Shown piece by piece: positions 1-20,040 of a DNA stretch of 62,221 nt. The translations under genes were made by a program, and so were the position numbers. Source of the stretch: Candidatus Poribacteria bacterium (GTDB taxonomy: Bacteria; Poribacteria; WGA-4E; WGA-3G); the NCBI GenBank assembly GCA_012271015.1, contig JAAXHD010000427.1:1-62221 (forward strand). Direction: 5' to 3'. Each line of letters begins with the position of its first letter. Position 1 is the stretch's first letter. The notes beneath the pieces were generated by a model that was given only the letters and a program-made list of their open reading frames with translations, was not told where the DNA came from and made no database searches.

Positions 1-54
1 GTTTAATTATCAAACTCACGTTATATACAGGATAACGACCCAGAAGGCATACGC

Positions 55-345
55 ATGGACCATCAAAGATATATACGGTGGATCGCGCGTATCGGGCTCG
101 GCGACCAATACCCGGGTGCCAATTGGCTTTCCCACTATTGGTATGATCGGAATCTCAAAATCTTCGTCAATCTGACGCGAATCACCGAATCTGCTGATGA
201 CCGGATCATGTTGATTATTGGTGCGGGGCATGTCTATCTGATTCAGCAGTTCCTTGAGGAGTCAGGGGATTACATCATCGAAAGTCCACTCAGATACTTG
301 GATGCGGACGCTGCTGACAAACCTGTATCCGAAGAAACAGAATAA
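55..345 (+). CDS. short ORF resembling the C-terminal end of a DUF5694/GumN-like protein (probable gene fragment)
   Basis: The frame is closed by TAA at 4-6, so no longer N-terminus is possible. The motif RNLKIFVNL...MLIIGAGHVYL recalls C-termini of DUF5694-type proteins (from memory, not searched). No clear SD. Confidence 0.3.
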   Translation: MDHQRYIRWIARIGLGDQYPGANWLSHYWYDRNLKIFVNLTRITESADDRIMLIIGAGHVYLIQQFLEESGDYIIESPLRYLDADAADKPVSEETE

Positions 346-679
346 AAATAATGCCCCCTTTTGGTCTCTAAATCGCGTCCTTAACAACAGAACTTGCGTA
401 AATTAAGCCGAGACCCTGTCTTTGGACAACATAGAAGTTCCCTCTCTGGGATCGGTGCGGTTACAAATCGTGAAGAAATGAAGAAACGCCCTATCAAAAA
501 CCCCAAGCAAAACCCTACCTGTGAAGTGCGTAAGTCCTATAAAATAAGACAATCTTTTCGCGATTAAAGTGTATCCATAATACTCGAGAAGAAAGAACAC
601 TTTTTTACGAATATACAACAACTAAAAGATCTAATCGGGAATCAGTAAAAACAGATTTCACTGTGATTTGGAGGATGAA

Positions 680-1981
680 ATGCGTATAGTCGAAGCAGTA
701 TCCGTCGGAATTTCTGCGATGCGTAGCAACAAAATGCGTTCATTGCTGACGATGCTCGGCATTATCATCGGTGTCGCTTCAGTATTAGCGATGATAGCGA
801 TTGGTGATGGTGCCAAGGAGATTGTCCGGCAAGACGCACAGAAGTTAGGTGGTGCAAATCAGTTCTTTGTGTTCCGGAGTTCGTACAAGCGTGTAAACAA
901 TCGCTGGGTCCGTATCCGAAGTAATGAATATCTGAAATATGAAGACGTTTTAGCAATCGAGGCGGAATGTCCAACTGTGAGTGCAGCCACACCCCAAATC
1001 TGGAACTGGGGCGGCGTGCTCATCCAAGCTTCAGGCGGCTCTGAAGTTCGGGCAGGCTGGAACGGCGTAGATGCCACCTATAACACCGCAATGGATTGGG
1101 ACGTTAAAGACGGACGTTTTATTAGCGGTGAAGACGTTAAAAACGCCTCGAAAGTTTGTGTGCTTGGAGGTGAGGTCGCGACCGCCTTGTTCGGTGATAA
1201 GTCTCCATTAGGACAAGAAATTAAAATCGCACGCGGCAGCGGCTATTACAACCGATGGGGACAAAAAGAGGGTAGACGCTACACGGAACGCTTTACGGTC
1301 GTTGGAACATTCGTGCCACGCGGCACAAGCCTTCGGTTCGGTGTCAGTTTTGACAACCTTGTCTTTATTCCTGTATCTACTATCCAAGAACGCTTCACCG
1401 GCAATGACCAGATTCCGAACATTACCGTCTATGCACACACCGTCAAGGAGGTTCCTAAGGCAGTTGAAGAAGTTAAAACCGTCATCCGAAAACGGCATAG
1501 AAATCAAGACGATTTCATCGAGATCTTTGAGATGCACGCCGGTATGGCGCAATTGGATAAAATCAGTAAAATCATAAAAATCACCTTAGGGAGTATCGCC
1601 GGATTCTCGCTCCTTGTCGGCGGTATCGGGATTATGAACATGATGTTAGTCGCTGTCACCGAACGCACCCGTGAAATTGGGCTTCGGAAGGCACTCGGTG
1701 CAAAATCTCTGGATATCCTGCTTCAGTTCCTCATAGAGTCAGTGATTATGTGCGGTGTCGGTGGTGCAATCGGCGTTGGGTTGGGCATTCTCGCGGGCGA
1801 AGGCATGGCACTGCTCGCCGTCAACATCGTCAAAATTGTTCCCGAATGGCCCTCCGTTATCTCCTTGGAGTGGATACTGATTTCGGTATCAGTCTCAGCG
1901 ATAATCGGCATTTCTTTTGGCTTGTATCCCGCCATAAAGGCATCCTCGCTTACCCCGATTGAAGCCCTTCGCAAAGATTAG
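680..1981 (+). CDS. MacB/FtsX-family ABC transporter permease (no fused ATPase), copy 1
   Basis: N-terminal TM helix (LLTMLGIIIGVASVLAMIAIGDGA), large periplasmic domain, and C-terminal FtsX-type helices (TREIGLRKALGAKSLDILLQFLIES). GGAGG lies 5 nt before ATG 680; the track start at 668 is TTG. Confidence 0.85.
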   Translation: MRIVEAVSVGISAMRSNKMRSLLTMLGIIIGVASVLAMIAIGDGAKEIVRQDAQKLGGANQFFVFRSSYKRVNNRWVRIRSNEYLKYEDVLAIEAECPTVSAATPQIWNWGGVLIQASGGSEVRAGWNGVDATYNTAMDWDVKDGRFISGEDVKNASKVCVLGGEVATALFGDKSPLGQEIKIARGSGYYNRWGQKEGRRYTERFTVVGTFVPRGTSLRFGVSFDNLVFIPVSTIQERFTGNDQIPNITVYAHTVKEVPKAVEEVKTVIRKRHRNQDDFIEIFEMHAGMAQLDKISKIIKITLGSIAGFSLLVGGIGIMNMMLVAVTERTREIGLRKALGAKSLDILLQFLIESVIMCGVGGAIGVGLGILAGEGMALLAVNIVKIVPEWPSVISLEWILISVSVSAIIGISFGLYPAIKASSLTPIEALRKD

Positions 1982-2249
1982 AATTTGGAACAACAAAAAT
2001 ATTTATGGTAAAGCCTCTAATTATACATTACGGTTGGCGAGGTTAGGAAACCTCGCCAGCGAAAATGGTGCACCTGAAGAAGAAAGTTGAGCAGGAACGC
2101 ACCAAACAACACGAAATTATTTTCTTGAGTAAATCACGGAATTTGGTTAAGATATGTGTAGTTAGAAAATGAGGCAATTGTTAATTTTCCTTTCAAACGG
2201 CGATACGTTTCTGAAAGGACACCCTCATTTTTCTTTTGTGGCAGAATTA

Positions 2250-2276
2250 TGCACCCTTTTTTTCTTCATTCGCGTC
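2250..2276 (+). promoter_or_regulatory. degenerate copy of TGCAMS-N17-CGTC motif (candidate ECF-type promoter) upstream of permease A1
   Basis: TGCACC (2250-2255), a 17-nt spacer, then CGTC (2273-2276). Flanks are alignable by eye with the copies at 11542, 12927 and 18078. Confidence 0.3.
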
Positions 2277-2363
2277 CCTTTGGATCCTATCTTTCTTAAA
2301 CCGATTGGTGAAGAAGGACATGCCTATCTCGTCATGCCGAAGAAACTTTAGCAAAGAGAAACA

Positions 2364-3923
2364 ATGTTCCTGACCCTGATACGCCAAGAGTTCTTGATTC
2401 ATCTGATGAGTGCGCGTTTTTTTGCTGCGGTCGTCATCACACTCTTGCTTGTCGTTGCCAATACGTTCGTCTTGATCGGTGTGCACGAGGAACGTCTCGC
2501 CGATTATAGCCAGAGGGAGGCGGTGAATCAAGAGAGCATCGCCACGACACCTACCTATTCGTATTTAAAGTTGAAGGTTCAACGTCCGCCCAATCCGTTG
2601 AGTCTCTTTAATGCTGGCTTAGAGACACGTTTCGGTAGTGATATAGACATAGCATTTGACAGCGTGCCTTCCCTCTCAAATCCCATAATTGATGTTAGAC
2701 CGGAAGAAGAACAGTGGGCATTTGGCAGCGAGCCATCCGTCTCAAGCCCCGGCGCACCCCTCGGTTTAAATAATCCATATCTGCGTCTGTTTTCACAGAT
2801 AGATCTCGTCTTTATCTTTCAAGTTGTGTTGAGTCTACTGTCCCTACTTTTCGCTTATGATGCGATTGCGGGTGATTGGGAAACCGGTACCTTACGTTTG
2901 GTGCTCTCGCACCCCGTTGGACGCGGGAGTGTCCTGCTTGCCAAATATATTGCGGCGATGGTTTGCCTGCTACTCCCGGTACTGATGAGCCTGCTGCTCG
3001 CACTGATTCAGTGTTCGTTCGCGCCTTCCCTACAATTCAACACAGATGATTTTCTGAGAGTTGGGGGGATTGTTTTAACAACAGTCGTCTACCTGTCGGT
3101 TTTTTACCTCATCGGTTTGCTCATTTCCACGACAACTCGCCGAGCTGCTACATCCCTGATGCTCTGTCTGTTCTTGTGGGTGGTTTTGGTACTCGTCTAT
3201 CCGAACTGGAGCCGATTTGCCTTGAATCCGGGGGGCGACATGCGTGGTGAAAAAAGATCTGCTGACCAGCAAATAGCACAGATTCGAGAGGAGGCAGATC
3301 GAGATCGGGATCGGTTCTTAGCTAATACCCCGCTTAAGGGAGACCCTCCACTATTTTTTGATACATTTGCAGGTGTCGATTTCTTTAGAAGGGGACAATG
3401 GTATCTCGGGAATTTGCCTCGAATGAACGTCGAATTGAGAGATACCGAAGACCCTCTGGTAACGCACTTGCGCCGTTATTATGAATTCGCAACGACACTG
3501 CAAATCCGGAGTGCTGAAAAGGTCGGCTTTGTCGTCCAGCAACTAGTGGTGCAGACCTCCCTCCGGCAAGCACGATGGGATGAACGACTCATGAAACTCA
3601 GTCCTGCAAGTCTCTACACGTTTGTAACCGCCGCGTGGGCAGGTACCGATTTAGATAGTATGGTGGATTATATCCGAGCCGCGGGAGCGTACCGACTTAC
3701 TCTCGTTGATGCCTTTCATGAGAGAGAGGCATTTGCGAGCCTGCGATGGTTCTCCACGAATCAAGGGGATATAGACTGGTCAATCTTGCCCCACTTTCAC
3801 TATGAGCGTGCAGATGTCGGCATTAACGCGCAGCGCGCCCTGCCTGAGCTGTTTTTGCTGTTATGCACCAATATCGTCCTATTCATGGCAACATTTTTGA
3901 TTTTTATTAAAGTTGAAGTATAG
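2364..3923 (+). CDS. ABC-2-type permease-like membrane protein (DUF3526-like architecture), paralog A1
   Basis: N-terminal TM, extracytoplasmic loop, and a 5-TM ABC-2 core with the motif AYDAIAGDWETGTLRLVLSHPVGRGSVLLAKY. A ~190-aa charged domain and a terminal TM follow, ending KVEV. Paralog of 14795-16318. Confidence 0.75.
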   Translation: MFLTLIRQEFLIHLMSARFFAAVVITLLLVVANTFVLIGVHEERLADYSQREAVNQESIATTPTYSYLKLKVQRPPNPLSLFNAGLETRFGSDIDIAFDSVPSLSNPIIDVRPEEEQWAFGSEPSVSSPGAPLGLNNPYLRLFSQIDLVFIFQVVLSLLSLLFAYDAIAGDWETGTLRLVLSHPVGRGSVLLAKYIAAMVCLLLPVLMSLLLALIQCSFAPSLQFNTDDFLRVGGIVLTTVVYLSVFYLIGLLISTTTRRAATSLMLCLFLWVVLVLVYPNWSRFALNPGGDMRGEKRSADQQIAQIREEADRDRDRFLANTPLKGDPPLFFDTFAGVDFFRRGQWYLGNLPRMNVELRDTEDPLVTHLRRYYEFATTLQIRSAEKVGFVVQQLVVQTSLRQARWDERLMKLSPASLYTFVTAAWAGTDLDSMVDYIRAAGAYRLTLVDAFHEREAFASLRWFSTNQGDIDWSILPHFHYERADVGINAQRALPELFLLLCTNIVLFMATFLIFIKVEV

Positions 3924-4095
3924 AATGGCGGTCAGCGGTCAGGTCGCTGCACTTTCAGCGATCGGTTAAGAAACACATGTGATGGTTGCTCATGTGCTTA
4001 CTACCACAAACTGCTGATTACCGACTGCACTTACTAATATGGTACAACCGCTCTTTGCTGAAGGCTGATTGCTGATAGCCGACAGCCATAAAAAA
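3924..4095. repeat. intercistronic heptamer-array hairpin element
   Basis: The left arm ggcggtcagcggtcaggtcgctg is roughly complementary to the right arm gctgattgctgatagccgacagcc. It occupies the same position as the element between the paralogs at 16319-16532. Confidence 0.7.
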
Positions 4096-5547
4096 ATGAT
4101 TTGGCATATTGTTACACGTGAACTTTTAGACCATCTCACGAGTCTACGCTTTGGCTTAACCACGTTCATCCTCGTGGCATTGATGGTAACCAACGCTGTT
4201 GGGCATCTTCGGACACATCCACAGCGGATTCGGAAGTATTCCGAGAAGGTTAACGCCTCTCAGACTGAGTTGAAATCCCGAACGGAGTTGTATGCGCTGC
4301 TGCAAAAGGGACCCGGTAAACTTTACAAACGTCCCTCATCCCTCGCCTTCATTGCCGATGGAGGCAATGCGCTTCTACCAGACGAAAGCGTGAGCGGGGG
4401 TTTCTGGAGGCTGTACGGGCTTGCCTATATTTGGTCGATGGGCGTTCCACGTCTGAATATAGAGGCAATCAGCAATCTTCGCCCTAACACCACGGTGATC
4501 GATTGGGTTTTTATCACCACGTATCTGCTCTCTTTTGTTCCGCTCCTCTTTACCTTTGACGCGCTTTCGGGGGAACGGGAACGCGGAACGCTGCGGCTGT
4601 GTCTTGCAAATTCCATTTCGCGCACTGCCCTGTTAGTAGGTAAATTCCTCGGTTCTCTCATCACAGTCCTCATCGCCTTCTATTGTGCCGTGTTGTTCAA
4701 TCTCGCCATCATTTCTACCGGGAGTTGGACGCAGCTCGGCGGTGCGGACTGGGGACGTGTGGGACTCATCCTTCTGATTGCTTCTTGCTACGCTGGTATC
4801 TTCGTTGCAATTGGGCTTATCGTCTCCGCTGTGACCCGAGAAAGCCGGTTAAGTCTCGTTATCCTGTTGCTCATCTGGGTGACCGTCGTGGTGTTTACGC
4901 CATCAACCCTCGGCACCCTCTCAACGGAATGGATGCCCCCCGTTCAAACGCATCACCAATTTCAGATGACAAGAGGGACTGCCTTCGACCAAATTAGAAG
5001 CGATTTCCTAAATAAAAGGGAAAATTTAAAAGAACGCCGTCAATCAGCAGAAACCTCGCAGGAAGAGGTCGCGGGAATAGACCCTTCGGAATTGGAGATC
5101 CAGCAGGAGTTCGTCAACAGAGATATGGAGATGCGTGAGCGGATTAGCCGCCAGCATTTCGCGGCGCAAAGTGCTCAAGTCCTACACGCGAGAAGGATAA
5201 CCCGGTGTTCCCCTGCAGCGGTTGTCCAATACGCCCTTGAATCTATGGCAGGCACCGGCTTTAATCGCCATTTACAATTCTTAAACCAGTGTCGTCTTCA
5301 TATCCAACACTTCCGAAACTTCATCGTTGAAATGGATCGGGAGGATCCAGAAAGTCTTCACTTCATTGGTGTCCGAAAAGGCATGTCGGAAAAGCCTGTC
5401 TCACCAGAGGCTATTCCGATATTTGAGGATAAGTTAACCTTTCAAGATACACTCAACCCGGCAATAATGGATATACTGTTGCTGGTTTTATTGCTCAGTG
5501 TGTTTCTTTCAGGAGCGTTCCTCGTTTTCCTACGTTCGGAGGTATAG
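4096..5547 (+). CDS. ABC-2-type permease-like membrane protein (DUF3526-like architecture), paralog B1
   Basis: Motif FDALSGERERGTLRLCLANSISRTALLVGKF. Same topology as A1 and ends RSEV. ATG 4096 (MIWHIV...) aligns with the start of paralog 16533 (MWHIAK...); the track TTG at 4069 lies inside the repeat. Confidence 0.75.
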   Translation: MIWHIVTRELLDHLTSLRFGLTTFILVALMVTNAVGHLRTHPQRIRKYSEKVNASQTELKSRTELYALLQKGPGKLYKRPSSLAFIADGGNALLPDESVSGGFWRLYGLAYIWSMGVPRLNIEAISNLRPNTTVIDWVFITTYLLSFVPLLFTFDALSGERERGTLRLCLANSISRTALLVGKFLGSLITVLIAFYCAVLFNLAIISTGSWTQLGGADWGRVGLILLIASCYAGIFVAIGLIVSAVTRESRLSLVILLLIWVTVVVFTPSTLGTLSTEWMPPVQTHHQFQMTRGTAFDQIRSDFLNKRENLKERRQSAETSQEEVAGIDPSELEIQQEFVNRDMEMRERISRQHFAAQSAQVLHARRITRCSPAAVVQYALESMAGTGFNRHLQFLNQCRLHIQHFRNFIVEMDREDPESLHFIGVRKGMSEKPVSPEAIPIFEDKLTFQDTLNPAIMDILLLVLLLSVFLSGAFLVFLRSEV

Positions 5548-5649
5548 GGCACCGTGAGAAACACAGTGAAAAATTAGGTGATTTACTTTTTTTAAACCGC
5601 CTCCCGAAAAAGTTCACTCTTTAGGTTAAAATCCAATTGGAAACTGTTT

Positions 5650-6879
5650 ATGCGATACGATCTATCAACGCACACCACTCTAACGGATGAAGAACTCATT
5701 GGGCTTGCACAAGTCGGTGATGAGTTGGCATTTGCGGAACTGATGTCGCGTTATAGTCGACGCATCTGGAAAGTGATTATCGCAAATTCGAGACAACCCC
5801 GCGATGCCGAAGAAATTCTCATGGATGTCTGGAGAACCGTCTGGGAAAATATCAGCGGACTGAGAAGTGTTGAGAGTTTTGGCGGATGGGTGCATCGTAT
5901 TGCTTACAACGCTTGCAAGCGGTACTACGCTACTGCCAGTCGTTCAGGGAATAACATTCCTTATAGTGATGCGGATCTGACGGATCGTATCGACCAAGAT
6001 GCAGTCGCACGTTTCAGGGAAACGGAACGCTACGACGATGTCAGGGAAGCCGTACATCACCTCCCGGATAAAGTGCGCCGCGTTGCGGTCCTATACTATC
6101 TGGAATTGTGGAACGTCAAGGAGATCCACACTGAACTCGGATTGGCGATGGGCACAATCAAGACCAAATTAAGACAGACGCGTGAACTCTTGCGCAAGGA
6201 GTTCGGTGTCGAACCTGAAAGAGGGAGAACTATGTCATCCAAACGAGAAGAATCCAAACGCATCCAAACCAGAATCAAGGTGATCGGTGTCGGTGGCGCG
6301 GGCGGCAACGCCGTTAAACGAATGATTGAAGACGGTTTGACGGACATTGAATTTTATGCCGTGAATACAGACCAGCAAGCACTTGATAAACACCCTGCGG
6401 CAACACCGGTACAGATCGGTGCTAACACCACCCAAGGGCTTGGTTGTGGCGCGAACCCAGAGATAGGTAAAAGAGCCGCTGAAGAGGACAAAGAAACGCT
6501 CAACGCCATCGTTGCGGACGCCGATATTGTCTTTATTATAGCCGGTATGGGCGGCGGAACAGGAGCGGGTGCTTCGCCGCTGATCGCATCTCTCGCGCAA
6601 GCACAGGGTGCCTTGGCTGTAGGTGTTGTGACCTGTCCATTCAATTTTGAAGGTCAACGTCGCGCCGAACAAGCGAAACGTTCGCTACAGAAAATTCAAG
6701 AAAATGCTGATTCTGTCGTTGTCGTGTCAAACCAACAGTTGCTCGATTCGATAGAGCAGAAGCAGAAACTGTCAATGACAATACGCGAGGCGTTTCATCT
6801 AAGTGATGAGACGCTGCACCGAAGTGTTGAAAGAAGCATCTCGGAATTTCATGCCAGTACCCTGTCCCAAGCTACTTAA
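5650..6879 (+). CDS. ECF sigma-70 family factor fused to a truncated FtsZ-like GTPase domain
   Basis: Sigma region 2 (FGGWVHRIAYNACKRYY) and region 4 (VAVLYYLELWNVKEIHTELGLAMGTIKTKLRQTR) are followed in the same frame by IKVIGVGGAGGNAV, GLGCGANPEIG, AGMGGGTGAGASP and VVTCPFNFEGQRR. The ORF ends just after the H7-like helix. Confidence 0.8.
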   Translation: MRYDLSTHTTLTDEELIGLAQVGDELAFAELMSRYSRRIWKVIIANSRQPRDAEEILMDVWRTVWENISGLRSVESFGGWVHRIAYNACKRYYATASRSGNNIPYSDADLTDRIDQDAVARFRETERYDDVREAVHHLPDKVRRVAVLYYLELWNVKEIHTELGLAMGTIKTKLRQTRELLRKEFGVEPERGRTMSSKREESKRIQTRIKVIGVGGAGGNAVKRMIEDGLTDIEFYAVNTDQQALDKHPAATPVQIGANTTQGLGCGANPEIGKRAAEEDKETLNAIVADADIVFIIAGMGGGTGAGASPLIASLAQAQGALAVGVVTCPFNFEGQRRAEQAKRSLQKIQENADSVVVVSNQQLLDSIEQKQKLSMTIREAFHLSDETLHRSVERSISEFHASTLSQAT

Positions 6880-6978
6880 CGTTCTCAGGTAGTGCCAGAG
6901 AAACACTTTTTCACCCCTTTTTAAACGTGAATTTAACCTAATACCATTTCTAAGAGGTTATAAAGGAAAGGTAAAATA

Positions 6979-9207
6979 ATGCACACCGAAATGTTAAGAA
7001 ATATAGAGGACATTCTGTCGATAGAACTGCTCACGCTATTCGATCCAATTGCTGTTTCACCGGATGGGACACAACTTGCTGTTGCTGTTCAAAGTTATTC
7101 CAGAAAACGCGTAGGAGCGGAAAATGATACATATCTTCCAACCGGCTTAGCTGGCTTGCAAGAAGGCAGTGAAATTTGGATTATCAATGTTCAGAGTGGT
7201 GGATCGCGAAATCTTACTCCAAATTGGGGGACGAGTTATAGGCCAGCATGGTCTCCGGATGGAAAAAGATTAGCTTTTTATTCCGATAAGCATAAAACCG
7301 CCCAATTGTGGATATGGGAGGTCGGCGAAGATGAACCGTGGCTCGCGAGTGATGTCAGGATTCAGCCGTTTTTGTCGATGGCACAGCCACCGCTCTGGAC
7401 CGTTGATGGAACACGTATTATCGTTAGGTTGCATTCAGCAGCGGAGACAAATGAAGAGGCATCTCCAGACAAGGAAAAGGCATCGGTAACAATCTTTGCC
7501 AGTCCTATTGTTGGACAATCGGAACATGAATTCCGACCGCGGCGGACTTCGTGGTTTGATGCGCGATATCGCGCAGACCTTGGGATGATAAGGGTTGATA
7601 CAGGGGAAGTCGAAACGTTAGCGCAGGGACTCTATCCATCTGGTATCCGTGTTGCCCCTGATGGAGCAACCGCGGCGTTTACGAGTTTTCAAGGGTTAGA
7701 AAGTAATGCTCAACTCCTTTACGAACTCTATCTTTCGCCGCTAAATGGAGGACCTCCGAAATTACTTGCTGACTCGCTGAAATCTGGATGGGGACGTTTG
7801 TTTATTTGGTCGCCAGATGGTCACTACGTTGTGTTTCCGACAGAGAATAAGGTTGCCAAAGATGAACTTTTGCTCATTTCGACAGTTGACGGTAGCCGAT
7901 TGAATCTCACCCAAGACACCGATATTGAACTGACAAATAATTCGCATCCGCCTTTGTGGAGTTCAGATAGTAAACACCTGTTTTGTGTCGCCCGCGGCGA
8001 TCTCTGGCAAATTACCATTGCTGATCGGACTATTGAAAAACTGACAGACGGATTTGATGGGCGTGTTGTTCGGATTGTTCGGCAAGTGGAAGCGGGCACT
8101 GTTTGGTCGCCAGACTGCGCCGAGTCAATATACATTTATACGGTCCATTCAAACAGCGAACAGCACGGCTTTCATCGCGTCAACCTGCAAACGCGCGAGA
8201 TTACACGGTTGGTTCAGGAAAAACGTAATTATAATCCTATGGGTAGAAACATGGATGTTGCACCCCAAACGGGAGATATTTTCTACAGCATTGAGGACGT
8301 AAATCACGCGCCCGATGTGTGGGTAGCGGATGCCGACTTTCAAAATCCACGGCAACTCACTCGACTGAACCCAAACATTGAAACAGAACCCCTGGGGACT
8401 TCTCAACTCGTCACTTGGCAGACACCTTCTGGAAAAGACCTCAGAGGTGCCTTGCTGCTCCCACCAGACTATGTAGAAGGCAAACACTACCCATTAATTA
8501 CGCAGGTCTACGGTGGTTCTTTTCTCTCATATCAATTTAACGATTTCGGTACGGATCGCTATGGGGGCAATTTTCTGCTGACAAACCAAGACTACGTCGT
8601 CTTTCTTCCCGATACCCCTATGGAAACGAATGCGCCGATCCAAGAGTTAGCGGAGATGGTGCTCTCAGGTATAGATACGCTGATTGATATGGGAATTGCC
8701 GATCCCAGCCGTTTAGGAATAATGGGGCATAGTTACGGAGGTTACTGCGTCAACGCTCTGATTACACAAACATCAAGGTTTAGTGCGGCTGTCAGTAGTG
8801 CCCCGCTCGCGAATCTAATCAGTTTCTATGGGCATTTGACGGAAGAGGGAGATAGTCAGTGGATTCACTGGGCGGAAAAAGAACAAGGCAAAATGGGTGG
8901 ATCGCTTTGGGAATTCCGGGACCGGTATATTGAAAACTCCCCTATCTTTTTTCTTGACAAGGTGGAGACGCCGCTGTTGTTAGTTGTTGGTGCCTTAGAC
9001 GGTGTTCCGGCTGTCCCGCAGGCGGGAGAAATGTTCTCCGGTTTGCGTAGACTTGGGAAAAAAGCCGTTTTGGCACGATATGAGGGTGAAGGACATTCAC
9101 AAGTCACAAATTGGCGTTATCCCAATGTGGCTGATTATTGGCAACGGGTGCTTTCTTGGTTTGATGAACATTTGTCGGAATCGTCGGAAGAGGACCAAGG
9201 ACAGTAA
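6979..9207 (+). CDS. S9 family serine peptidase with N-terminal beta-propeller (acylaminoacyl/prolyl oligopeptidase type)
   Basis: PD40-like repeats (PAWSPDGKRLAFYSD, WSPDGHYVVF) and the nucleophile elbow GHSYGGY. C-terminal hydrolase fold ending ...YEGEGHS. Confidence 0.9.
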   Translation: MHTEMLRNIEDILSIELLTLFDPIAVSPDGTQLAVAVQSYSRKRVGAENDTYLPTGLAGLQEGSEIWIINVQSGGSRNLTPNWGTSYRPAWSPDGKRLAFYSDKHKTAQLWIWEVGEDEPWLASDVRIQPFLSMAQPPLWTVDGTRIIVRLHSAAETNEEASPDKEKASVTIFASPIVGQSEHEFRPRRTSWFDARYRADLGMIRVDTGEVETLAQGLYPSGIRVAPDGATAAFTSFQGLESNAQLLYELYLSPLNGGPPKLLADSLKSGWGRLFIWSPDGHYVVFPTENKVAKDELLLISTVDGSRLNLTQDTDIELTNNSHPPLWSSDSKHLFCVARGDLWQITIADRTIEKLTDGFDGRVVRIVRQVEAGTVWSPDCAESIYIYTVHSNSEQHGFHRVNLQTREITRLVQEKRNYNPMGRNMDVAPQTGDIFYSIEDVNHAPDVWVADADFQNPRQLTRLNPNIETEPLGTSQLVTWQTPSGKDLRGALLLPPDYVEGKHYPLITQVYGGSFLSYQFNDFGTDRYGGNFLLTNQDYVVFLPDTPMETNAPIQELAEMVLSGIDTLIDMGIADPSRLGIMGHSYGGYCVNALITQTSRFSAAVSSAPLANLISFYGHLTEEGDSQWIHWAEKEQGKMGGSLWEFRDRYIENSPIFFLDKVETPLLLVVGALDGVPAVPQAGEMFSGLRRLGKKAVLARYEGEGHSQVTNWRYPNVADYWQRVLSWFDEHLSESSEEDQGQ

Positions 9208-9248
9208 GTATAACCAGCAGTGAATTTGATCATTTTCTCAAGGAGACA

Positions 9249-9317
9249 TTCCATCTCAGCAATGAAATGCTACTCTCCAGTGTTGAAAGCATCTCGGAAG
9301 TTCATGCTGCAAATTAG
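9249..9317 (+). pseudogene. relic copy of the 3-prime end of the FtsZ-like ORF
   Basis: Translates to FHLSNEMLLSSVESISEVHAAN-stop, compared with FHLSDETLHRSVERSISEFHAS at 6793-6856. The nucleotide alignment is obvious by eye, with one 3-nt indel. Confidence 0.55.
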
Positions 9318-9366
9318 ATGTTAGTTTGAATATATAGTTAGCGTAGAGATTTAACGTAAAAACGTT

Positions 9367-9405
9367 TTGATGAGGGTTAAGAATCAAGTGCTTAACCCTC
9401 ATCAA
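9367..9405. other. perfect 15-bp-stem hairpin (possible terminator/REP-like)
   Basis: ttgatgagggttaag, a 9-nt loop, then cttaaccctcatcaa. There is no T-tract on the plus strand. Confidence 0.5.
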
Positions 9406-9454
9406 ATTGTAAAGCCAGTTCCTAAACATATTCTGAATCGGAGGAAGTTAATTA

Positions 9455-11506
9455 ATGAAAATGCCGGAGTTGACAACGGCAAAGACTCTCAAAGCTCACA
9501 AGTGTGCCACAAACGAACGGGTAAAACAGAAAAATTACACAATAGTATTGCTCATCGCACTATCGTTTACCTTAATCACAAGTTTACAAACTTCGGCAGT
9601 TGAAAACGCTCAGACCGTCCGGAAAGAACTCCTCGCCGTCAAAACAGATCAGCCTCCCACTATTGACGGTATTCTCGACGATGTTTGTTGGCAAGACGCG
9701 CCGCAAGCCATCGGTTTCACCGACGAACGCACCGAAAAACCCGCAAAGAATCAATCCATCGGTCGTCTCGTTTATACGGGCACAGCCATTTACGTTGGAC
9801 TTCACCTTTATGATGATATGCCTGACAAAATTGTGGCGCGCCAAACCAAAGACCAGGCGCGAATCCGCGGAGAGGACTGGGTCTCCTTCAGTCTTGACCC
9901 CTTTCATACGCACCAGTTTTCGGACAGAAATTTCTTCATTGTAAATCCGCTCGGCACAAAATACGCGCATCTCGCGACGGGACGCGCCGAGAAAAGTGAG
10001 TGGATTGGGCTATGGAAAACCGCAGCGCGGATTGTAGAAGATGGATGGATTGTAGAAATGGAAATCCCGTGGCAGATGCTGGATTACCCCGACACAACCA
10101 AACCAATTCGGATGGGTATCAACCTTGATAGAGAACAGCAACGGACTGGAGAGCGTTCGTGGTGGTGTAATTTAGGAGTGAATGAGTTTCGAGAGAACGA
10201 TGGACATTGGATTGATGTACTACCCCCGCCTCGGAAGCGTGAACTGAAACTGTTACCCTATCTGATAGGCGGTATCGGTGAAACAGGAACCGAAGAAAGA
10301 GAATATACTGCCCGCGCAGGTGCGGATATCCGCTATGAGGTTACCCCATAACTCCGCCTCATCGGCACAGCAAACCCTGATTTTGACAATATTGAACAGG
10401 CTGTAGAAGGTATCGACTTTTCCTACGGTGAACGTTACGTACCCGATCGCCGTCCGTTCTTTTCGGAAGGTGGTAATGTTTATCGCCTCGGTCGCCTGTT
10501 CCATTCGCGGCGGATAATGGATATGGATGGTGGGCTTAAACTTTTTGGGAAAATCGGGAAAAATACATCGGTAGGCACCTTAGGCACTTATCACCGGAAC
10601 AACCAGAACGTTATTCTTCAAGCCTCACAATCGCTCACGGTAACATCCAATATCAGCGCGGCACTCCTTTCGCATCATCACCGTGACACTGGGGCTAATA
10701 ATGTTGGTTATCTTTCTGGAGATGTACGCCACGGTAAATTTTCAGTGGGTTCTAACCTCACCCAAACTTGGGCAGACGAATCGGATGGGAGGAATGGGTT
10801 CATCAGTTTAGGTTACAACGGATCGCTCTTCCAACCCTACCTGTCCGCGTTTTTTGTAGATCCGGATTTCGTCAATAGACTCGGGTACCGTCCGTTTACC
10901 GGCTACCGCGGTATAGGTTTGGGTAGTTTTATCCGAAACGAATGGCGCGAAGGACTCTTTCGCAGAGCATCCGCTTCTATCCAAAGCCAGATCTCTAATA
11001 CTTACGAAGGTAAAGTCTTCCGGCGTGACTTCTATGTATCTTCTCTTGTTCTAATGCATAGTGACTACGCACTTGCGGCTGGCTGGAGGGGTGGGCAATT
11101 TGAAGAATTCAACGATAGTGTTTTCAGCGTTGGATTACGTGCGCGTGCTTCTGACAGGTTCAATAATGTTGGTGTTACCTACAATTGGGGTGAACAGGCG
11201 AGTGAACGAATTCATCGCATCAGCGGAAGTCTGAATCTCCACGCCTACGGTTTCACTGCAGGACTCTCCTCACAAATCCAGTGGCACTTTGAAACACGTT
11301 ATCAACAGATATTCACCCTCACTTATGACTTCAGTCCCGCCTTAAGCCTCGGGAGTCGTTTAATCTGGCAAGTAGAGGGCGTTAATATTTATTTTGCCTT
11401 GCGCCGCTCTGGCTATGCCGGCACCGACTTTTTCATCATCCTCGGCGACCCGAATGCTTCGGAATTCAAACAGCGTTTCGTTGCGAAGGTAATCCGCGCA
11501 TTTTAG
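9455..11506 (+). pseudogene. CBM9-like/DUF5916 outer-membrane-type protein interrupted by a single in-frame TAA (10349-10351)
   Basis: The two track ORFs (9455-10351 and 10517-11506) are in the same frame. The 165 nt between them translate without stops to LRLIGTANPDFDNIEQAVEGIDFSYGERYVPDRRPFFSEGGNVY, the conserved DUF5916 core. The N-terminus has the CBM9 pattern PPTIDGILDDVCWQDA. Confidence 0.75.
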
Positions 11507-11541
11507 ACCTCAAAATCCAACTTTTTCATTTTTCCCCATAA

Positions 11542-11568
11542 TGCACGTTTTCTGATTGAGTTTTCGTC
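11542..11568 (+). promoter_or_regulatory. TGCACG-N17-CGTC motif (candidate ECF-type promoter) with no protein gene downstream
   Basis: TGCACG 11542-11547, a 17-nt spacer, CGTC 11565-11568. About 75 bp is alignable with the sigma-gene upstream regions. Confidence 0.35.
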
Positions 11569-11589
11569 TTTAATAATAGAGAGCGTGAA

Positions 11590-11775
11590 CAACAAACGAA
11601 CCCTCTGTACGTTTGTATATTCTGAAGATTTTAAATAAATAGGACTTACGCAAAATCACAGAATTACGCCTATGCCTACGCGGTAGGTGCGGTTCGAAAC
11701 CGCACTCTACCAGGGGAAGTACGTAAGTCCTAACTAAAATACAAGAAAGGGGCTGCTCCGTGATAGCCCTTTTGG
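11590..11775 (+). ncRNA. candidate small RNA (promoter-like motif, nested hairpins, terminator-like stem + T-run)
   Basis: 10-bp inverted repeats aggacttacg/cgtaagtcct (11641-11650, 11722-11731) enclose the hairpin GTAG-GTGCGG-ttcgaaa-CCGCAC. The stem gggct/agccc at 11750-11769 is followed by TTTT. No credible ORF. Confidence 0.25.
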
Positions 11776-12155
11776 ACTATTTTCGGATTATGCACCCTTT
11801 CTGTCTCAAAATCGTATCTTTGATTATAAAAGGGTAAAGTCATGATGAAAAAATGCAACTGTTTTGGAACTCGTTTGTAGTAACGACAACTGACAAATGT
11901 TTTACTATCTTTTTTGCCTGAACGAACTCTATATAGGCAGAAGGAGGAGAAAAGCAAAGACTGAGAGGTTCGGAGAAGGCATCTTCTATCTCTCGATTCC
12001 TTCAAATTGAGTTCATTTGGTTTCAACACCTTTTTTGAAAATAATGCAACCTTTTGACATCTAAGATGCGTCACCTAAATCAACGGATATAAAATTTTAG
12101 CAAAATTGCCACTTGCAAACTTAAATGCAAGTCTTAGTCTAATAAGGAGAAAAAA

Positions 12156-12341
12156 ATGCGCTTCCTAATGATTAATCTGCTCCTTGTCTGTTTGTTACTC
12201 TTCGGCATTGGTTACCTCGCTTTCGGTTGTGATGAGACTGTCGTGCCTACTGAACAGCGCGATCCTCATACAGAGGAGACCTTGGGGCGTCTTTTGGAAC
12301 ATTCCATAAACTCCTCAAAACGGACGCAGACTTGGATTTGA
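12156..12341 (+). CDS. small membrane-anchored or secreted protein (61 aa)
   Basis: AAGGAG sits 7 nt upstream of the ATG. Hydrophobic N-terminus with a lipobox-like LAFGC. Confidence 0.45.
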   Translation: MRFLMINLLLVCLLLFGIGYLAFGCDETVVPTEQRDPHTEETLGRLLEHSINSSKRTQTWI

Positions 12342-12464
12342 GTTAAAAAGACGGTTTTTTGATAGAGTTTGGGTTAAGTCAATTCATCCTTAAATTGAAG
12401 GTTTGAGTCGTATTAAAAAACAATTAACAGTGACAAAATTCAAAAATAAAAAAAGGAGAAAAAA

Positions 12465-12806
12465 ATGACAACGCAAATTCGCCAGCAAAATGGTATCTCG
12501 ATTTTGAAACCCACTGGAAAGGTGGGCGGACGTTCTGTATCAGACTTACGGAAAGTTATTTTGCCACAAATAGAGGCTTCTGATACCCCACGGATCCTCA
12601 TCAATTTCGAGCAGGTCAATCGGATCGATAGTTCAGGTCTTGGCACCTTGATGGAGGCATACGCTGCTGCGTCACGAAAACAGGGACGCGTAGGTGTCAT
12701 CAATGTCGGGAAACATATCAGAAATCTCATTGTTTTGAGTCGTGTAGTTAATCTGTTTGAACATTTCGACAGTGAGGACGCGGCTGTTGCGGGATTGTCG
12801 GCTTAG
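12465..12806 (+). CDS. STAS-domain anti-sigma-factor antagonist (SpoIIAA/RsbV-like)
   Basis: Motif NFEQVNRIDSSGLGTLMEAY with the conserved phosphorylatable Ser context. AAGGAG SD. Confidence 0.85.
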   Translation: MTTQIRQQNGISILKPTGKVGGRSVSDLRKVILPQIEASDTPRILINFEQVNRIDSSGLGTLMEAYAAASRKQGRVGVINVGKHIRNLIVLSRVVNLFEHFDSEDAAVAGLSA

Positions 12807-12833
12807 CTTTTGAAGTCCAGTAGAATATCCACA

Positions 12834-12864
12834 GGGAACTGGTTTTTTACCGGTTCCCTTTTTT
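12834..12864 (+). terminator. rho-independent terminator after the STAS gene
   Basis: gggaactggt, a ttttt loop, accggttccc, then TTTTTT. Confidence 0.7.
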
Positions 12865-12926
12865 ATTGCCTGACACTCACAAAACAAATTCTAAAAAATT
12901 CAGGCTTTCATTTTTTTTTCCCAGAA

Positions 12927-12953
12927 TGCAAGTTTTCTACCTAAAATTTCGTC
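12927..12953 (+). promoter_or_regulatory. TGCAAG-N17-CGTC motif (candidate autoregulated ECF-type promoter)
   Basis: TGCAAG 12927-12932, a 17-nt spacer, CGTC 12950-12953. Lies between the STAS terminator and the sigma gene. Confidence 0.4.
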
Positions 12954-13071
12954 TTTAATGTAAAGAGGGTGTAAACTCTACCATATTGCTTAATTGCACA
13001 AAATTTGGCGTTTGATTAAACTCTTTGGCGAAGTCATACAGGACCCGATCTATTTATTCGGAGGAAATTTC

Positions 13072-14757: not shown

Positions 14758-14794
14758 GATAATGCTGTATCCAGTTCGATTTTAAGGGGAAACC

Positions 14795-16318: not shown

Positions 16319-16532
16319 AATAGTCGTCAGTTATCAGTTGTCAGTTAAGAGGTGTTTTGTGGAGACAACAGCAACTGCCGCTGCCACGAAGCATTGGCTG
16401 ATGACTGAAGGGATTACGCAGTAATCCGTTGCCACGAAGCATTGGCTGATGACTGAAGGGATTACGCAGTAATCCGTACCAAGAACTGAAAACTATTAAA
16501 ACTGACAACCGACAACCAACAACTGATAACCA
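16319..16532. repeat. intercistronic heptamer-array element containing a 48-bp tandem duplication
   Basis: Left arm gtcagttatcagttgtcagtt (16326-16346) and complementary right arm actgacaaccgacaaccaacaactgataacc (16501-16531). The core holds two 48-bp-period units at 16383-16477. Confidence 0.85.
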
Positions 16533-17936: not shown

Positions 17937-18077
17937 CGCGTAGTTTTCAAGTTCCCATCTTGCAAAGAGCCAAGTGTTCCTTTTTTCAAACACTGTACGA
18001 GCAAAAAACATTTGTGCTGCCCCTTTCGCTGTTCCATCCGTAAAAAATTCAGATTTCTTTCATTTTTTTCAACAAGA

Positions 18078-18104
18078 TGCACGTTTTTTGATTGAACTTT
18101 CGTC
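18078..18104 (+). promoter_or_regulatory. TGCACG-N17-CGTC motif (candidate autoregulated ECF-type promoter)
   Basis: TGCACG 18078-18083, a 17-nt spacer, CGTC 18101-18104. Confidence 0.4.
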
Positions 18105-18221
18105 CTTAATAATAGAAGGTGTGAATCGGACTGTATTGCTTAATTTTACAAAGTTTGGCATTTGATTAAATCTTTTGGTAAAGGCATATATGATCTAATC
18201 TGTTCGTGAGGAGGAAGTCTC

Positions 18222-19940: not shown

Positions 19941-20040
19941 GACAACATTTATTTTGGTGATTGGTAATTCCGGAAGATCTGTTGGATTTCAAGCACATTG
20001 GTAGGTCTTTTCGGGTTCTGAGGCAGGAGAAGGTGCGACA

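What the first reader, a model, noticed from the sequence alone, without database searches (positions are those of the whole stretch)
5650..6879. ECF sigma factor fused in frame to a truncated FtsZ GTPase domain
Residues ~1-190 carry ECF sigma region 2 (FGGWVHRIAYNACKRYY) and region 4 (VAVLYYLELWNVKEIHTELGLAMGTIKTKLRQTR). After a ~20-aa basic linker, the same frame continues into a clear FtsZ N-terminal domain: IKVIGVGGAGGNAV, AVNTDQQAL, GLGCGANPEIG, the tubulin signature AGMGGGTGAGASP, and VVTCPFNFEGQRR. It runs through an H7-like helix (IREAFHLSDETLHRSVERSISEF).

The ORF stops about 10 residues before the position of the FtsZ T7 synergy loop (NxDxxD). It also lacks the C-terminal domain and tail. 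It could therefore bind GTP but could not complete a filament active site, which suggests a GTP-sensing or capping module rather than a division protein.

An internal ATG at 6232 preceded by GAGGGAG could also express the FtsZ-like part alone. The gene is not in a dcw (ftsQAZ) context. ECF sigmas regulated by C-terminal extensions are established. I know of no FtsZ-type extension.
Basis: partly seen in the sequence, partly recalled or inferred. Interest (0 to 1): 0.85.

Follow-up and report, generated by a model that had tools for sequence, protein, structure and literature searches.

The report
Sigma factor fused to truncated FtsZ
This is a real gene, kept across the sponge-symbiont phylum Poribacteria, that joins an alternative sigma factor to the GTP-binding half of the division protein FtsZ; the FtsZ half probably caps the cell's own FtsZ filaments and so links a stress-type transcription switch to cell division, but no experiment has tested this.

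Summary
Window 5650..6879 (+) is one 409-aa ORF: an ECF sigma factor (sigma2 aa 31-98, sigma4 aa 130-183), a 20-aa linker, and an FtsZ GTPase domain (aa 208-400). The FtsZ part ends at helix H7, just before the T7 loop.

It is not a chimera or a pseudogene:
- The same architecture, 399-419 aa long, occurs in more than 100 protein clusters and about 50 Poribacteria species genomes. These include complete chromosomes and a single-cell genome.
- dN/dS is 0.1-0.3 in both halves.
- A normal full-length ftsZ sits in the dcw cluster of the same chromosomes.

The FtsZ half arose from the Poribacteria FtsZ lineage and keeps all GTP-binding loops.

The gene has its own conserved ECF-type promoter, TTTTTTTAAACC-N18-CTCTTTA. 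In the sequence examined this motif occurs only upstream of paralogous sigma genes, which carry other C-terminal domains (full FtsZ, FtsZ-DnaE, WD40).

An internal Shine-Dalgarno plus ATG at M195 is conserved at synonymous sites. In one lineage it serves as the only start codon.

Most likely mechanism (inferred, not shown): the FtsZ module has no bottom face, so it caps native FtsZ filaments, tethers the sigma factor to them and/or slows division.

The parts
5587..5598 (+). -35-like promoter box: a T-run plus AAACC (TTTTTTTAAACC)
   Evidence: Present at a fixed 55-57 nt before the ATG in 48 of 51 orthologous loci, although the sequence further upstream is unrelated. TAAACC-N18-CTCT occurs 81 times in 1.69 Mb, against 0-7 times at other spacings.
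5617..5623 (+). -10-like promoter box CTCTTTA, 18 nt after the AAACC box
   Evidence: The spacer varies while both boxes stay invariant. There is no sigma-70-type promoter in 5400-7100.
5650..6879 (+). Full ORF of the sigma-FtsZN fusion protein (409 aa plus stop)
5740..5943 (+). Sigma region 2 (aa 31-98)
   Evidence: Pfam PF04542. AlphaFold pLDDT is 73-89 here. Column conservation in the family is 0.90.
6037..6198 (+). Sigma region 4 (aa 130-183)
   Evidence: Pfam PF08281 and PF04545; TIGR02937. Column conservation is 0.92.
6205..6270 (+). Linker (aa 186-207), predicted to be disordered
   Evidence: pLDDT is below 50 for aa 187-205. This is the stretch of lowest synonymous diversity in the whole gene: codons 189-202, 0.19 against 0.55 elsewhere, permutation p = 0.0004.
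6220..6234 (+). Internal Shine-Dalgarno-like AGAGGGAGA followed by an in-frame ATG (M195)
   Evidence: M195 is conserved in 98% of sequences. R193 is always AGA and E190 always GAA. A purine-rich SD plus ATG sits at the same place in every clade-A paralogue, whatever the C-terminal domain. The stand-alone FtsZN gene (P0135) starts at this ATG and keeps the junction sequence as its 5' UTR.
6271..6849 (+). FtsZ N-terminal GTPase domain, loops T1-T6 through helix H7 (aa 208-400)
   Evidence: The motifs match the Poribacteria canonical FtsZ (GGAGGNAV, NTD, GLGCGANP, GGGTGAG, PFNFEG, NQ). pLDDT is 74-93, and aa 378-408 form one long helix.
6850..6879 (+). Short variable tail (aa 401-409) and stop codon. 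The T7 loop, the C-terminal subdomain and the C-terminal peptide are all absent.
   Evidence: Column conservation is 0.57. The stop falls 5-12 aa after 'SISEFH' in 51 species. Alignment to full-length FtsZ confirms the missing parts.

Best explanation
**Shown.** The gene encodes a genuine two-module protein that is conserved across the phylum Poribacteria. The N-terminal module is an ECF (group 4) sigma factor. The C-terminal module is a paralogue of the organism's own FtsZ, reduced to the GTP-binding N-terminal domain. It keeps the 'top' face and nucleotide loops T1-T6 and helix H7. It lacks the T7 loop, the C-terminal subdomain and the membrane-anchor peptide. The gene has its own ECF-type promoter, which it shares with paralogous sigma genes. 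It also carries a conserved internal ribosome-binding site and ATG at M195.

**Inferred.**
1. The promoter is read by this sigma clade itself, giving positive autoregulation and cross-regulation.
2. The mRNA yields both the full-length sigma-FtsZN protein and free FtsZN.
3. The FtsZ module binds GTP. Through its intact top face it docks onto the T7-bearing growing end of native FtsZ protofilaments. It can neither accept the next subunit nor trigger hydrolysis, so it behaves as a cap or poison subunit.
4. This ties the sigma factor to the state of the division filament, by sequestration or localisation. It also lets the ECF response slow cell division.
For: **Architecture and conservation**
- Domain architecture.
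- More than 100 clusters at 75-99% identity, and 51 species loci at 50-97% identity, all with an uninterrupted ORF of 399-419 aa and the same stop position.
- dN/dS is 0.12-0.27 for the sigma part and 0.08-0.27 for FtsZN.

**Paralogue status**
- A canonical FtsZ (424-449 aa, in the dcw cluster, with the C-terminal peptide DWDIPAFLR) lies on the same contigs. For example, ERZ25084387:ctg36550l carries both genes.
- The FtsZ module groups with Poribacteria FtsZ (bootstrap 95) and is 64% identical to it. Its T1-T6 loops match those of canonical Poribacteria FtsZ, apart from one substitution each in T3 and T4.

**Promoter**
- The two boxes are conserved with a variable spacer. The motif is found only upstream of clade-A sigma genes in 1.69 Mb.

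**Internal start**
-. The natural sigma-less derivative uses this start as its only start.

**Selection on the tether**
- No stop codon ever separates the two modules in any of the 51 species.

**Capping logic**
- Monomers add through their GTP-bound top face to the bottom (T7) end of the filament. Bottom-face mutants are toxic cappers (PMC8936486).
- Defective cell-division domains, including rare FtsZ/tubulin domains, have been proposed as effectors elsewhere (PMC7159879).
Against: - There is no experimental or structural test of FtsZN binding to FtsZ, of GTP binding, or of sigma activity.
- The loops conserved on the top face are also needed simply to bind GTP, so their conservation does not separate capping from nucleotide sensing.
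- Most members have a 4-residue insertion in the H6-H7 loop, which could alter the interface.
- No regulon genes other than the sigma paralogues were found. Only about 20 kb per genome could be searched.
- Sister fusions to WD40 propellers show that the sigma cassette tolerates unrelated cargo, so a specific link to division is not required.
- A covalently attached division inhibitor would have to be kept at very low levels. Nothing is known about its expression.
Confidence: 0.4

Rival explanations
1. Nucleotide-sensing regulatory extension. The FtsZ GTPase domain acts within the same molecule, like the C-terminal extensions of ECF41, ECF42 and ECF238. It switches sigma2/sigma4 between inactive and active conformations according to bound GTP or GDP, and has no contact with native FtsZ.
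For: - All GTP-binding loops are retained and under purifying selection.
- No anti-sigma gene lies nearby.
Against: - FtsZ binds GTP at micromolar or tighter affinity (general knowledge), far below cellular GTP levels. An isolated N-domain cannot hydrolyse GTP, so it would stay saturated and sense poorly.
- The same sigma clade works with unrelated cargo domains. This argues against an evolved intramolecular interface.
- The linker is predicted to be disordered.
- The conserved internal start, which would make free FtsZN, is left unexplained.
Confidence: 0.17
2. Effector arm of a self-activating sigma circuit that arrests growth. Clade-A sigma factors with WD40 propellers sense a trigger such as invader, host or stress. 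They switch on the shared promoter, which produces dominant-negative fragments of essential machines: FtsZ without its bottom face, DnaN lacking domain I, and DnaE/PHP. These stop division and replication. The fusion mainly ensures co-expression and feedback.
For: - One promoter is shared by all paralogues and, in 1.69 Mb, is found nowhere else.
- Every paralogue has the internal SD-ATG that could release the cargo.
- The cargoes are truncated or degenerate forms of essential proteins.
- Conflict systems with inactive cell-division domains as effectors are a precedent.
Against: - No PADLOC match for the gene or its neighbours.
- No relatives in viral contigs.
- No evidence that the WD40 paralogues sense anything.
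- The fused state is strictly conserved, which simple co-expression would not require.
- The regulon is undefined.
Confidence: 0.15
3. Fortuitous capture without a mechanistic link. A duplicated promoter-plus-sigma cassette landed upstream of an ftsZ paralogue and read through into it, as in scenario (d) of Pinto et al. 2020 for Planctomycetes. The sigma factor works as an ordinary ECF, and the FtsZ remnant is a passive appendage or does something unrelated.
For: - The sigma domains of paralogues are 52-59% identical but carry unrelated C-termini joined at the same point.
- The described precedent is PMC7671368.
- Local gene order is highly shuffled.
Against: This explains the origin, not the persistence.
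- The FtsZ half has dN/dS 0.08-0.27, intact GTP motifs and a fixed truncation point across about 50 species, down to 50-57% identity.
- A sigma-less FtsZN survives as a gene of its own.
Confidence: 0.15
4. Integrated decoy. The FtsZ module mimics native FtsZ so that phage or toxin proteins, or small molecules, that attack FtsZ bind it and so release or activate the sigma factor.
For: - It stays 64% identical to native FtsZ, with the same loops.
- Sister fusions carry other classic targets, DnaN and DnaE.
Against: - No defence-system signature.
- No association with mobile or defence islands was seen.
- The module evolves faster than native FtsZ: 71% against 90% identity within each group.
- No candidate ligand is known.
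Confidence: 0.08
5. Artefact: an assembly chimera, a missed frameshift or a decaying pseudogene.
For: None was found. The only irregular case is P0147, a separate sigma-FtsZ protein on a 2-kb contig whose C-terminus looks frameshifted.
Against: - The same ORF is recovered from more than 100 independent assemblies, from complete long-read chromosomes and from the single-cell genome WGA-3G.
- Both halves are under purifying selection.
Confidence: 0.01

Closest known systems
ECF sigma factors with regulatory C-terminal extensions: ECF41 (SnoaL-like), ECF42 (TPR), ECF238/CorE (Cys-rich), ECF57 (WD40-like)
   Same: - A minimal sigma2-sigma4 core with a fused soluble C-terminal domain.
- No adjacent anti-sigma gene.
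- Own ECF-type promoter.
- The sister paralogues carry WD40 repeats, as ECF57 does.
   Different: The extension is a recognisable half of an essential cytoskeletal GTPase. No FtsZ, tubulin or Poribacteria entry appears in the ECF reclassification paper. An internal translation start that could release the extension is not a described feature of those groups, as far as I know.
Planctomycetes ECF duplicates that capture adjacent DNA or genes as C-terminal extensions (Pinto et al. 2020, PMC7671368)
   Same: Closely related sigma2-sigma4 modules carry unrelated C-terminal domains, and the extension is homologous to a stand-alone gene.
   Different: - This is a different phylum.
- The cassette also includes a conserved promoter and an SD-ATG at the junction.
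- This particular capture is ancient, fixed across the phylum and under purifying selection. It is not a recent lineage-specific accident.
FtsZ filament cappers: bottom-face FtsZ mutants, MciZ, SulA
   Same: A molecule that occupies the T7-bearing end of a protofilament and cannot be extended would block growth at sub-stoichiometric levels. FtsZN has the top face and no bottom face.
   Different: - MciZ and SulA are unrelated small proteins.
- The capping mutants were made in the laboratory.
- Here the candidate cap is a natural FtsZ fragment covalently joined to a transcription factor.
- Binding is inferred, not shown.
SpoIIE-FtsZ coupling of sigma-F activation to asymmetric septation in Bacillus subtilis
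   Same: Sigma-factor activity is tied to the division machinery (papers listed, e.g. PMC10990147; the mechanism is from general knowledge).
   Different: The Bacillus link is indirect: a phosphatase binds FtsZ and acts through an anti-anti-sigma and anti-sigma cascade. Here the sigma factor itself carries an FtsZ domain.
Canonical FtsZ (TIGR00065) and truncated or FtsZ-like paralogues
   Same: The N-terminal GTPase fold and all nucleotide-binding motifs are shared, and the domain descends from the Poribacteria FtsZ lineage.
   Different: It has no T7 loop, no C-terminal subdomain and no C-terminal anchor peptide, and it is not in the dcw cluster. Its score falls below the equivalog cut-off.
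Conflict systems with inactive cell-division domains as effectors (Kaur, Burroughs, Iyer, Aravind 2020, PMC7159879)
   Same: A crippled division protein domain (MinD/ParA, FtsK, rarely FtsZ/tubulin) is deployed as a module inside a regulatory or defence protein.
   Different: Those systems are built on STAND or other NTPase cores, not on sigma factors. No such components lie near this gene.

Membership tests
ECF (group 4) sigma-70 family | A sigma2 domain is present | tested here: met
   PF04542, aa 31-98, 32.3 bits against a cut-off of 24.
ECF (group 4) sigma-70 family | A sigma4 domain is present | tested here: met
   PF08281 scores 24.9 bits, just under its 25.7 cut-off. The whole-family model TIGR02937 scores 66.8 bits against a cut-off of 42.9 over aa 27-184. 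PDB SigW and SigE hits reach E 6e-13 to 1e-10.
ECF (group 4) sigma-70 family | No region 1.1 or region 3 (minimal two-domain sigma) | tested here: met
   The sigma part spans about 185 aa. No Sigma70_r1 or Sigma70_r3 hit appears at E <= 0.1.
ECF (group 4) sigma-70 family | Directs RNA polymerase to a bipartite AAC-type promoter, usually its own | tested here: inconclusive
   A conserved TAAACC-N18-CTCT motif lies upstream of this gene and of all its paralogues, and is specific to that spacing. Recognition by this sigma factor was not tested.
ECF sigma factors with a regulatory C-terminal extension | A fused C-terminal domain and no cognate anti-sigma gene nearby | tested here: met
   The domain is fused in 51 species. 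The neighbours are ABC-2 permeases, an S9 peptidase and CBM9/DUF5916 proteins, and none has an anti-sigma domain.
ECF sigma factors with a regulatory C-terminal extension | The extension controls sigma activity | not testable with these tools
   This needs in vitro transcription or genetics.
FtsZ (cell division protein, TIGR00065) | N-terminal GTPase domain with the tubulin signature and loops T1-T6 | tested here: met
   PF00091, E 4e-45. The motifs align with the Poribacteria and S. aureus FtsZ.
FtsZ (cell division protein, TIGR00065) | T7 synergy loop (NxDxxD) that completes the neighbouring subunit's active site | tested here: not met
   The ORF ends before it.
FtsZ (cell division protein, TIGR00065) | C-terminal subdomain (FtsZ_C) and conserved C-terminal anchor peptide | tested here: not met
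   There is no PF12327 hit. It is absent in the alignment, whereas the canonical protein has DWDIPAFLR.
FtsZ (cell division protein, TIGR00065) | Whole-protein score above the equivalog cut-off; dcw (ftsA-ftsZ) context | tested here: not met
   The score is 241.9 bits against a cut-off of 295.2. The gene is not in a dcw context. The true ftsZ sits in the dcw cluster elsewhere on the same chromosomes.
Captured-gene ECF extensions (Pinto et al. 2020) | Near-identical sigma2-sigma4 paralogues with unrelated C-termini, and an extension homologous to a stand-alone gene | tested here: met
   The sigma parts are 52-59% identical while the cargo is FtsZ, FtsZ-DnaE, DnaN, PHP or WD40. The FtsZ part is nearest to the Poribacteria FtsZ.
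Known anti-phage defence systems (PADLOC) | Match to a defence-system protein model | tested here: not met
   No hits for the gene or for 7 neighbours.

The most novel reading that the evidence does not exclude
Poribacteria may run a previously undescribed circuit. A clade of self-activating ECF sigma cassettes is covalently wired to parts of the cell-cycle machinery. The cargoes seen are FtsZ without its polymerising bottom face, FtsZ-DnaE, DnaN fragments, and WD40 'sensor' versions. In this reading sigma-FtsZN is both a transcription factor and a cap on FtsZ filaments. From its internal start it also yields a free cap. The result would be a direct physical checkpoint or growth-arrest switch between transcription, division and replication.
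Probability: 0.3. Interest if true: 0.85.

Novelty: new variant of a known kind. Interest (0 to 1): 0.7.

Why it matters
Sigma factors are normally controlled by anti-sigma proteins, or by small sensor domains fused to them. A sigma factor that carries half of the cytokinetic GTPase would be a new way to couple gene expression to cell division. It would join the few direct links known between transcription and the divisome.

It would also be a natural version of the laboratory FtsZ 'capping' mutants. That makes it useful for studying filament polarity and treadmilling.

For ECF biology, the case shows that captured genes can become fixed functional extensions across a whole phylum. It also points to a portable unit made of promoter, sigma and internal start.

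For sponge symbiosis, a built-in brake on division could bear on how dominant, slow-growing symbionts control their proliferation.

The protein is small and soluble, so all of this can be tested in vitro even though Poribacteria are uncultured.

Tried and rejected
1. **Assembly chimera, frameshift or pseudogene.** Rejected.
2. **This is the organism's only FtsZ.** Rejected. A canonical dcw ftsZ lies on the same contigs.
3. **M195 is simply the ancestral ftsZ start codon.** Revised. The SD-ATG is at the same position in paralogues with WD40 or PHP cargo, so it belongs to the cassette junction.
4. **The G-to-A change in T1 and the D-to-Q change in T6 relative to S. aureus mark degeneration.** Rejected. 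The canonical Poribacteria FtsZ has the same residues.
5. **Conserved operon partner.** Rejected. The S9 peptidase downstream in the window is present in only some genomes. Neighbours are a shuffled set of modules, and none carries the promoter motif.
6. **Regulon search.**
   - A PWM and regex scan of the window and 1.69 Mb of loci found the motif only at clade-A sigma genes.
It returned only chance matches, none with a sigma homologue.
7. **Phage or defence link.** No relatives in viral contigs and no PADLOC hits.
8. **First tree attempt.** It was spoiled by a faulty domain-extraction rule. I redid it with phmmer-defined domains.
9. **Independent sigma-FtsZ fusion P0147.** It comes from another lineage, but sits on a 2-kb contig and has a C-terminus that looks frameshifted. 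It is too weak to count as convergence.
10. **Literature.** Searches for sigma-FtsZ fusions, or for Poribacteria ECF sigma factors, found no prior description.
Full report
**1.

Window 5650..6879 (+) is a single 409-aa ORF.

- Pfam finds Sigma70_r2 (aa 31-98), Sigma70_r4_2 (aa 130-180) and the Tubulin/FtsZ GTPase domain (aa 208-368, E 4e-45).
- NCBIfam finds the ECF superfamily model above its cut-off (aa 27-184).
- NCBIfam also finds the ftsZ equivalog, but only over profile positions 8-204 of 353 and below its cut-off, because half the protein is missing.
- The best solved structures are FtsZ proteins (S. aureus, E 1e-52, residues 5-192 of the chain) and ECF sigma factors (SigW, SigE).
- The internal ATG is at 6232, preceded by AGAGGGAGA.
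- An AlphaFold model built on a 63-sequence alignment folds sigma2 and the FtsZ domain with confidence. It leaves aa 187-205 disordered and ends in one long helix, aa 378-408, which is H7.

**2. It is real, old and selected**

- The protein database holds at least 120 clusters at 75-99% identity with the same three Pfam domains and lengths of 382-419 aa. Many sit on megabase contigs. NCBI names them only 'sigma-70 family RNA polymerase sigma factor [Candidatus Poribacteria bacterium]'.
- A scan of one genome per GTDB species returned about 55 Poribacteria genomes with the full fusion at 50-97% identity. These include complete chromosomes and the single-cell genome WGA-3G. Every named record is Poribacteria.
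- In 51 species-level loci the ORF is uninterrupted and 399-419 aa long. It stops 5-12 residues after 'SISEFH'.
- Column conservation is equal in the two halves, 0.90-0.92 for sigma and 0.89 for FtsZN.
- Pairwise dN/dS is 0.12-0.27 for sigma and 0.08-0.27 for FtsZN.

A chimera, a frameshift and a pseudogene are therefore excluded.

**3. It is a paralogue, not the division FtsZ**

- Full-length FtsZ proteins (424-449 aa, Tubulin plus FtsZ_C), named as Poribacteria FtsZ, occur on contigs of exactly the same lengths as those carrying the fusion. There are eleven such matches.
- One case was checked directly. Record ERZ25084387:ctg36550l carries the fusion at 2.42-2.44 Mb. It also carries ftsW-murG-murC-ftsA-ftsZ at 2.49 Mb.
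- In a neighbour-joining tree of N-domains, fused, stand-alone and canonical Poribacteria FtsZ sequences form one clade (bootstrap 95). The FtsZ module was therefore duplicated from the phylum's own ftsZ.
- It is 64% identical to the canonical N-domain.
- Its loops match the canonical ones: T1 GGAGGNAV, T2 NTD, T5 PFNFEG and T6 NQ are identical, T3 reads GLGCGANP and T4 GGGTGAG. The apparent departures from S. aureus in T1 and T6 are traits of the lineage, not decay.
- Homology stops 7-8 residues before the canonical T7 loop 'GEINVDFADV'. The C-terminal subdomain and the anchor peptide DWDIPAFLR are absent.

**4. Transcription unit**

Upstream sequences of the orthologues cannot be aligned except for the last 70 nt or so. 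That stretch contains TTTTTTTAAACC, an 18-nt spacer that varies among distant members, then CTCTTTA, at a fixed 55-57 nt from the ATG. This holds in 48 of 51 loci. In the window the boxes are at 5587-5598 and 5617-5623.

- In 1.69 Mb of Poribacteria DNA, on both strands, TAAACC-N18-CTCT occurs 81 times. At spacings of 12-24 nt other than 18 it occurs 0-7 times.
- Every copy followed by an ORF precedes a member of the same sigma clade. The few others are ORF-less extra copies upstream of sigma-FtsZN genes.
- The window has one copy.
- No sigma-70-type promoter and no intrinsic terminator flank the gene.

This is the signature of an ECF-type promoter that is probably autoregulated. That the clade itself reads it is an inference.

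**5. The family context changes the picture**

An exhaustive search of 50%-identity representatives shows that the sigma module (aa 1-200) belongs to a clade of paralogues 52-59% identical to it. I call this clade A. Its members carry different C-termini:

| Cargo | Length / examples |
|---|---|
| Full-length FtsZ | P0123, 595 aa |
| FtsZ plus a DnaE-type polymerase | P0122 and L063-L065, 1425-1442 aa, in three or more species |
| DnaN lacking its first domain | P0128 |
| A PHP domain | P0131 |
| WD40 propellers | 700-905 aa, often several per genome |

- L056 and L057 (556-561 aa) end in a decayed DnaE start, 'FVHFPNYSEY', so they derive from the triple fusion.
- All share the promoter.
- All share the junction '...LRKEF-GVEP-x-RG-x-x-M-S/T...'.
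- This matches the pattern reported for Planctomycetes, where duplicated sigma2-sigma4 modules insert and take a downstream gene as a C-terminal extension (PMC7671368).
- WD40-type extensions are known from ECF57 (PMC8999054).
- The ECF reclassification paper does not mention FtsZ, tubulin or Poribacteria. Other searches found no description of this fusion.

**6. The internal start**

- M195 is present in 98% of orthologues.
- R193 is always AGA and E190 always GAA.
- Codons 189-202 have the lowest synonymous diversity in the gene, 0.19 against 0.55 elsewhere (permutation p = 0.0004).
- dS in the linker is often depressed.
- The amino acids at the junction differ among clade-A paralogues. Even so, all keep a purine-rich Shine-Dalgarno-like run 5-8 nt before an in-frame ATG.
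- A 212-aa stand-alone FtsZN (P0135, Poribacteria) nests inside the sigma-FtsZN clade (bootstrap 84 for the joint clade). It begins exactly at this Met.
- P0135 also keeps the last 25 nt or so of the linker as its 5' UTR: GGTCGAACCATAAAGGGTAATTATG, compared with GGTGTCGAACCTGAAAGAGGGAGAACTATG in the fusion.

So the site serves as a start codon in at least one lineage. The fused genes very probably make both the fusion protein and the free domain.

**7. Mechanism**

What the sequence shows is a sigma factor tethered by a flexible linker to an FtsZ domain that has the nucleotide pocket and top face but no bottom face.

Current models hold that GTP-bound monomers add through their top face to the T7-bearing growing end, and that bottom-face mutants are toxic cappers (PMC8936486). 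From this I infer that FtsZN caps native FtsZ filaments.

The strict retention of the fusion argues that the tether matters. The conserved internal start argues that the free domain matters too.

My preferred reading (confidence about 0.4) is that this protein links an ECF response to the division filament. It would do so by sequestering or localising the sigma factor and by slowing division.

Rival readings, each with roughly 0.1-0.2 confidence:
- a GTP-sensing extension;
- the effector arm of a sensor-effector growth-arrest circuit, for which conflict systems with inactive division domains are a precedent (PMC7159879);
- neutral capture;
- an integrated decoy.

No defence signature and no viral relatives were found.

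**8. Limits**

- The regulon is unknown, because only about 20 kb per genome was available. The metagenome motif scan returned only chance hits.
- GTP binding, FtsZ binding, sigma activity and isoform production are all untested.
- The gene neighbourhood is a shuffled set of ECF sigma genes, ABC-2 permease pairs, CBM9/DUF5916 proteins, MacB/FtsX and an S9 peptidase. It gives no functional clue.

**9. Verdict**

[quoted passage not shown] It is conserved across a phylum and belongs to a remarkable clade of sigma cassettes fused to cell-cycle proteins.

Interest: 0.7.

Noticed in passing
L001:1-1246; L004:3111-4841 (and about 4.5 kb upstream of the fusion in L012-L031 and L055): A second kind of fusion: an ECF sigma factor of a different clade joined to a full three-domain DnaN sliding clamp (576 aa). 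It lies a few kb upstream of sigma-FtsZN in many related genomes but is absent from this window. It recalls the coupling of the T4 gp45 clamp to the gp55 sigma factor (from general knowledge).
   Followed up: partly
L063:10001-14284; L064:10001-14326; L065:10001-14329; L008:424-4701: Triple fusions of 1425-1442 aa: sigma, full-length FtsZ (the T7 loop NxDxxD is intact in L063-L065) and a DnaE-type polymerase (PHP, pol3_alpha, finger, HHH). They are conserved in at least three species and use the same promoter.
   Followed up: partly
L067-L090 (e.g. L075:9941 and L075:13017; L077:2315 and L077:9941): Many sigma-WD40 paralogues of 840-905 aa, often in tandem. They share the TTTAAACC-N18-CTCT promoter and the internal SD-ATG junction.
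   Followed up: partly
window 12994-14757 and 18222-19940: Two more paralogous ECF sigma factors (587 and 572 aa). Each has a C-terminal extension of about 380 aa, rich in predicted helix and with no Pfam hit. Each is followed by a pair of ABC-2/DUF3526 permease genes. Their sigma domains are about 50% identical to that of the sigma-DnaN fusion.
   Followed up: partly
L009:8001-8639 (also L010, L011): A stand-alone 212-aa FtsZ N-domain gene (P0135) that arose from sigma-FtsZN by loss of the sigma part. It lies after three DUF5694 genes and before DUF5916 and two 565-aa ECF sigma genes.
   Followed up: yes
L016:8921; L017:9412; L031:9827: Extra copies of the promoter motif with no ORF behind them, lying about 170 nt to 1 kb upstream of the sigma-FtsZN gene. 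In L031 the proximal promoter is disrupted by an insertion.
   Followed up: no
L048:7452-8663 and L048:11469 onward: One chromosome (OZ244821.1) carries two sigma-FtsZN-type genes about 2.8 kb apart, of 403 and 427 aa, each with the promoter. Other genomes hold both sigma-FtsZN and a sigma-FtsZ long form: OY764016.1 (L016 and L056) and JAJEIP01 (L014 and L057).
   Followed up: no
P0125, P0129, P0138, P0143 (no locus fetched): Proteins of 731-840 aa with two Tubulin and two FtsZ_C domains, i.e. tandem double FtsZ. They were among the best non-sigma hits. Their taxon is unknown.
   Followed up: no
L091:660-2030 (GCA_004196255.1): P0147 is a 456-aa sigma-plus-FtsZ N-domain protein with an unrelated sigma part. 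Its FtsZ part is nearest to a non-Poribacteria FtsZ, so it may be an independent fusion. It sits on a 2-kb contig, and its C-terminus looks frameshifted after the start of T7.
   Followed up: partly
window 1-20000 compared with L012-L066: Gene order around the fusion is reshuffled even between strains whose fusion proteins are 97% identical. The S9 peptidase, MacB/FtsX, the CBM9 plus orf329 pair, the ABC-2 pairs and the sigma genes swap positions, all on one strand. The CBM9_298 plus orf329 pair of the window corresponds to a single DUF5916 gene of about 657 aa elsewhere. L001 has an IS605 OrfB/TnpB gene in the array.
   Followed up: no
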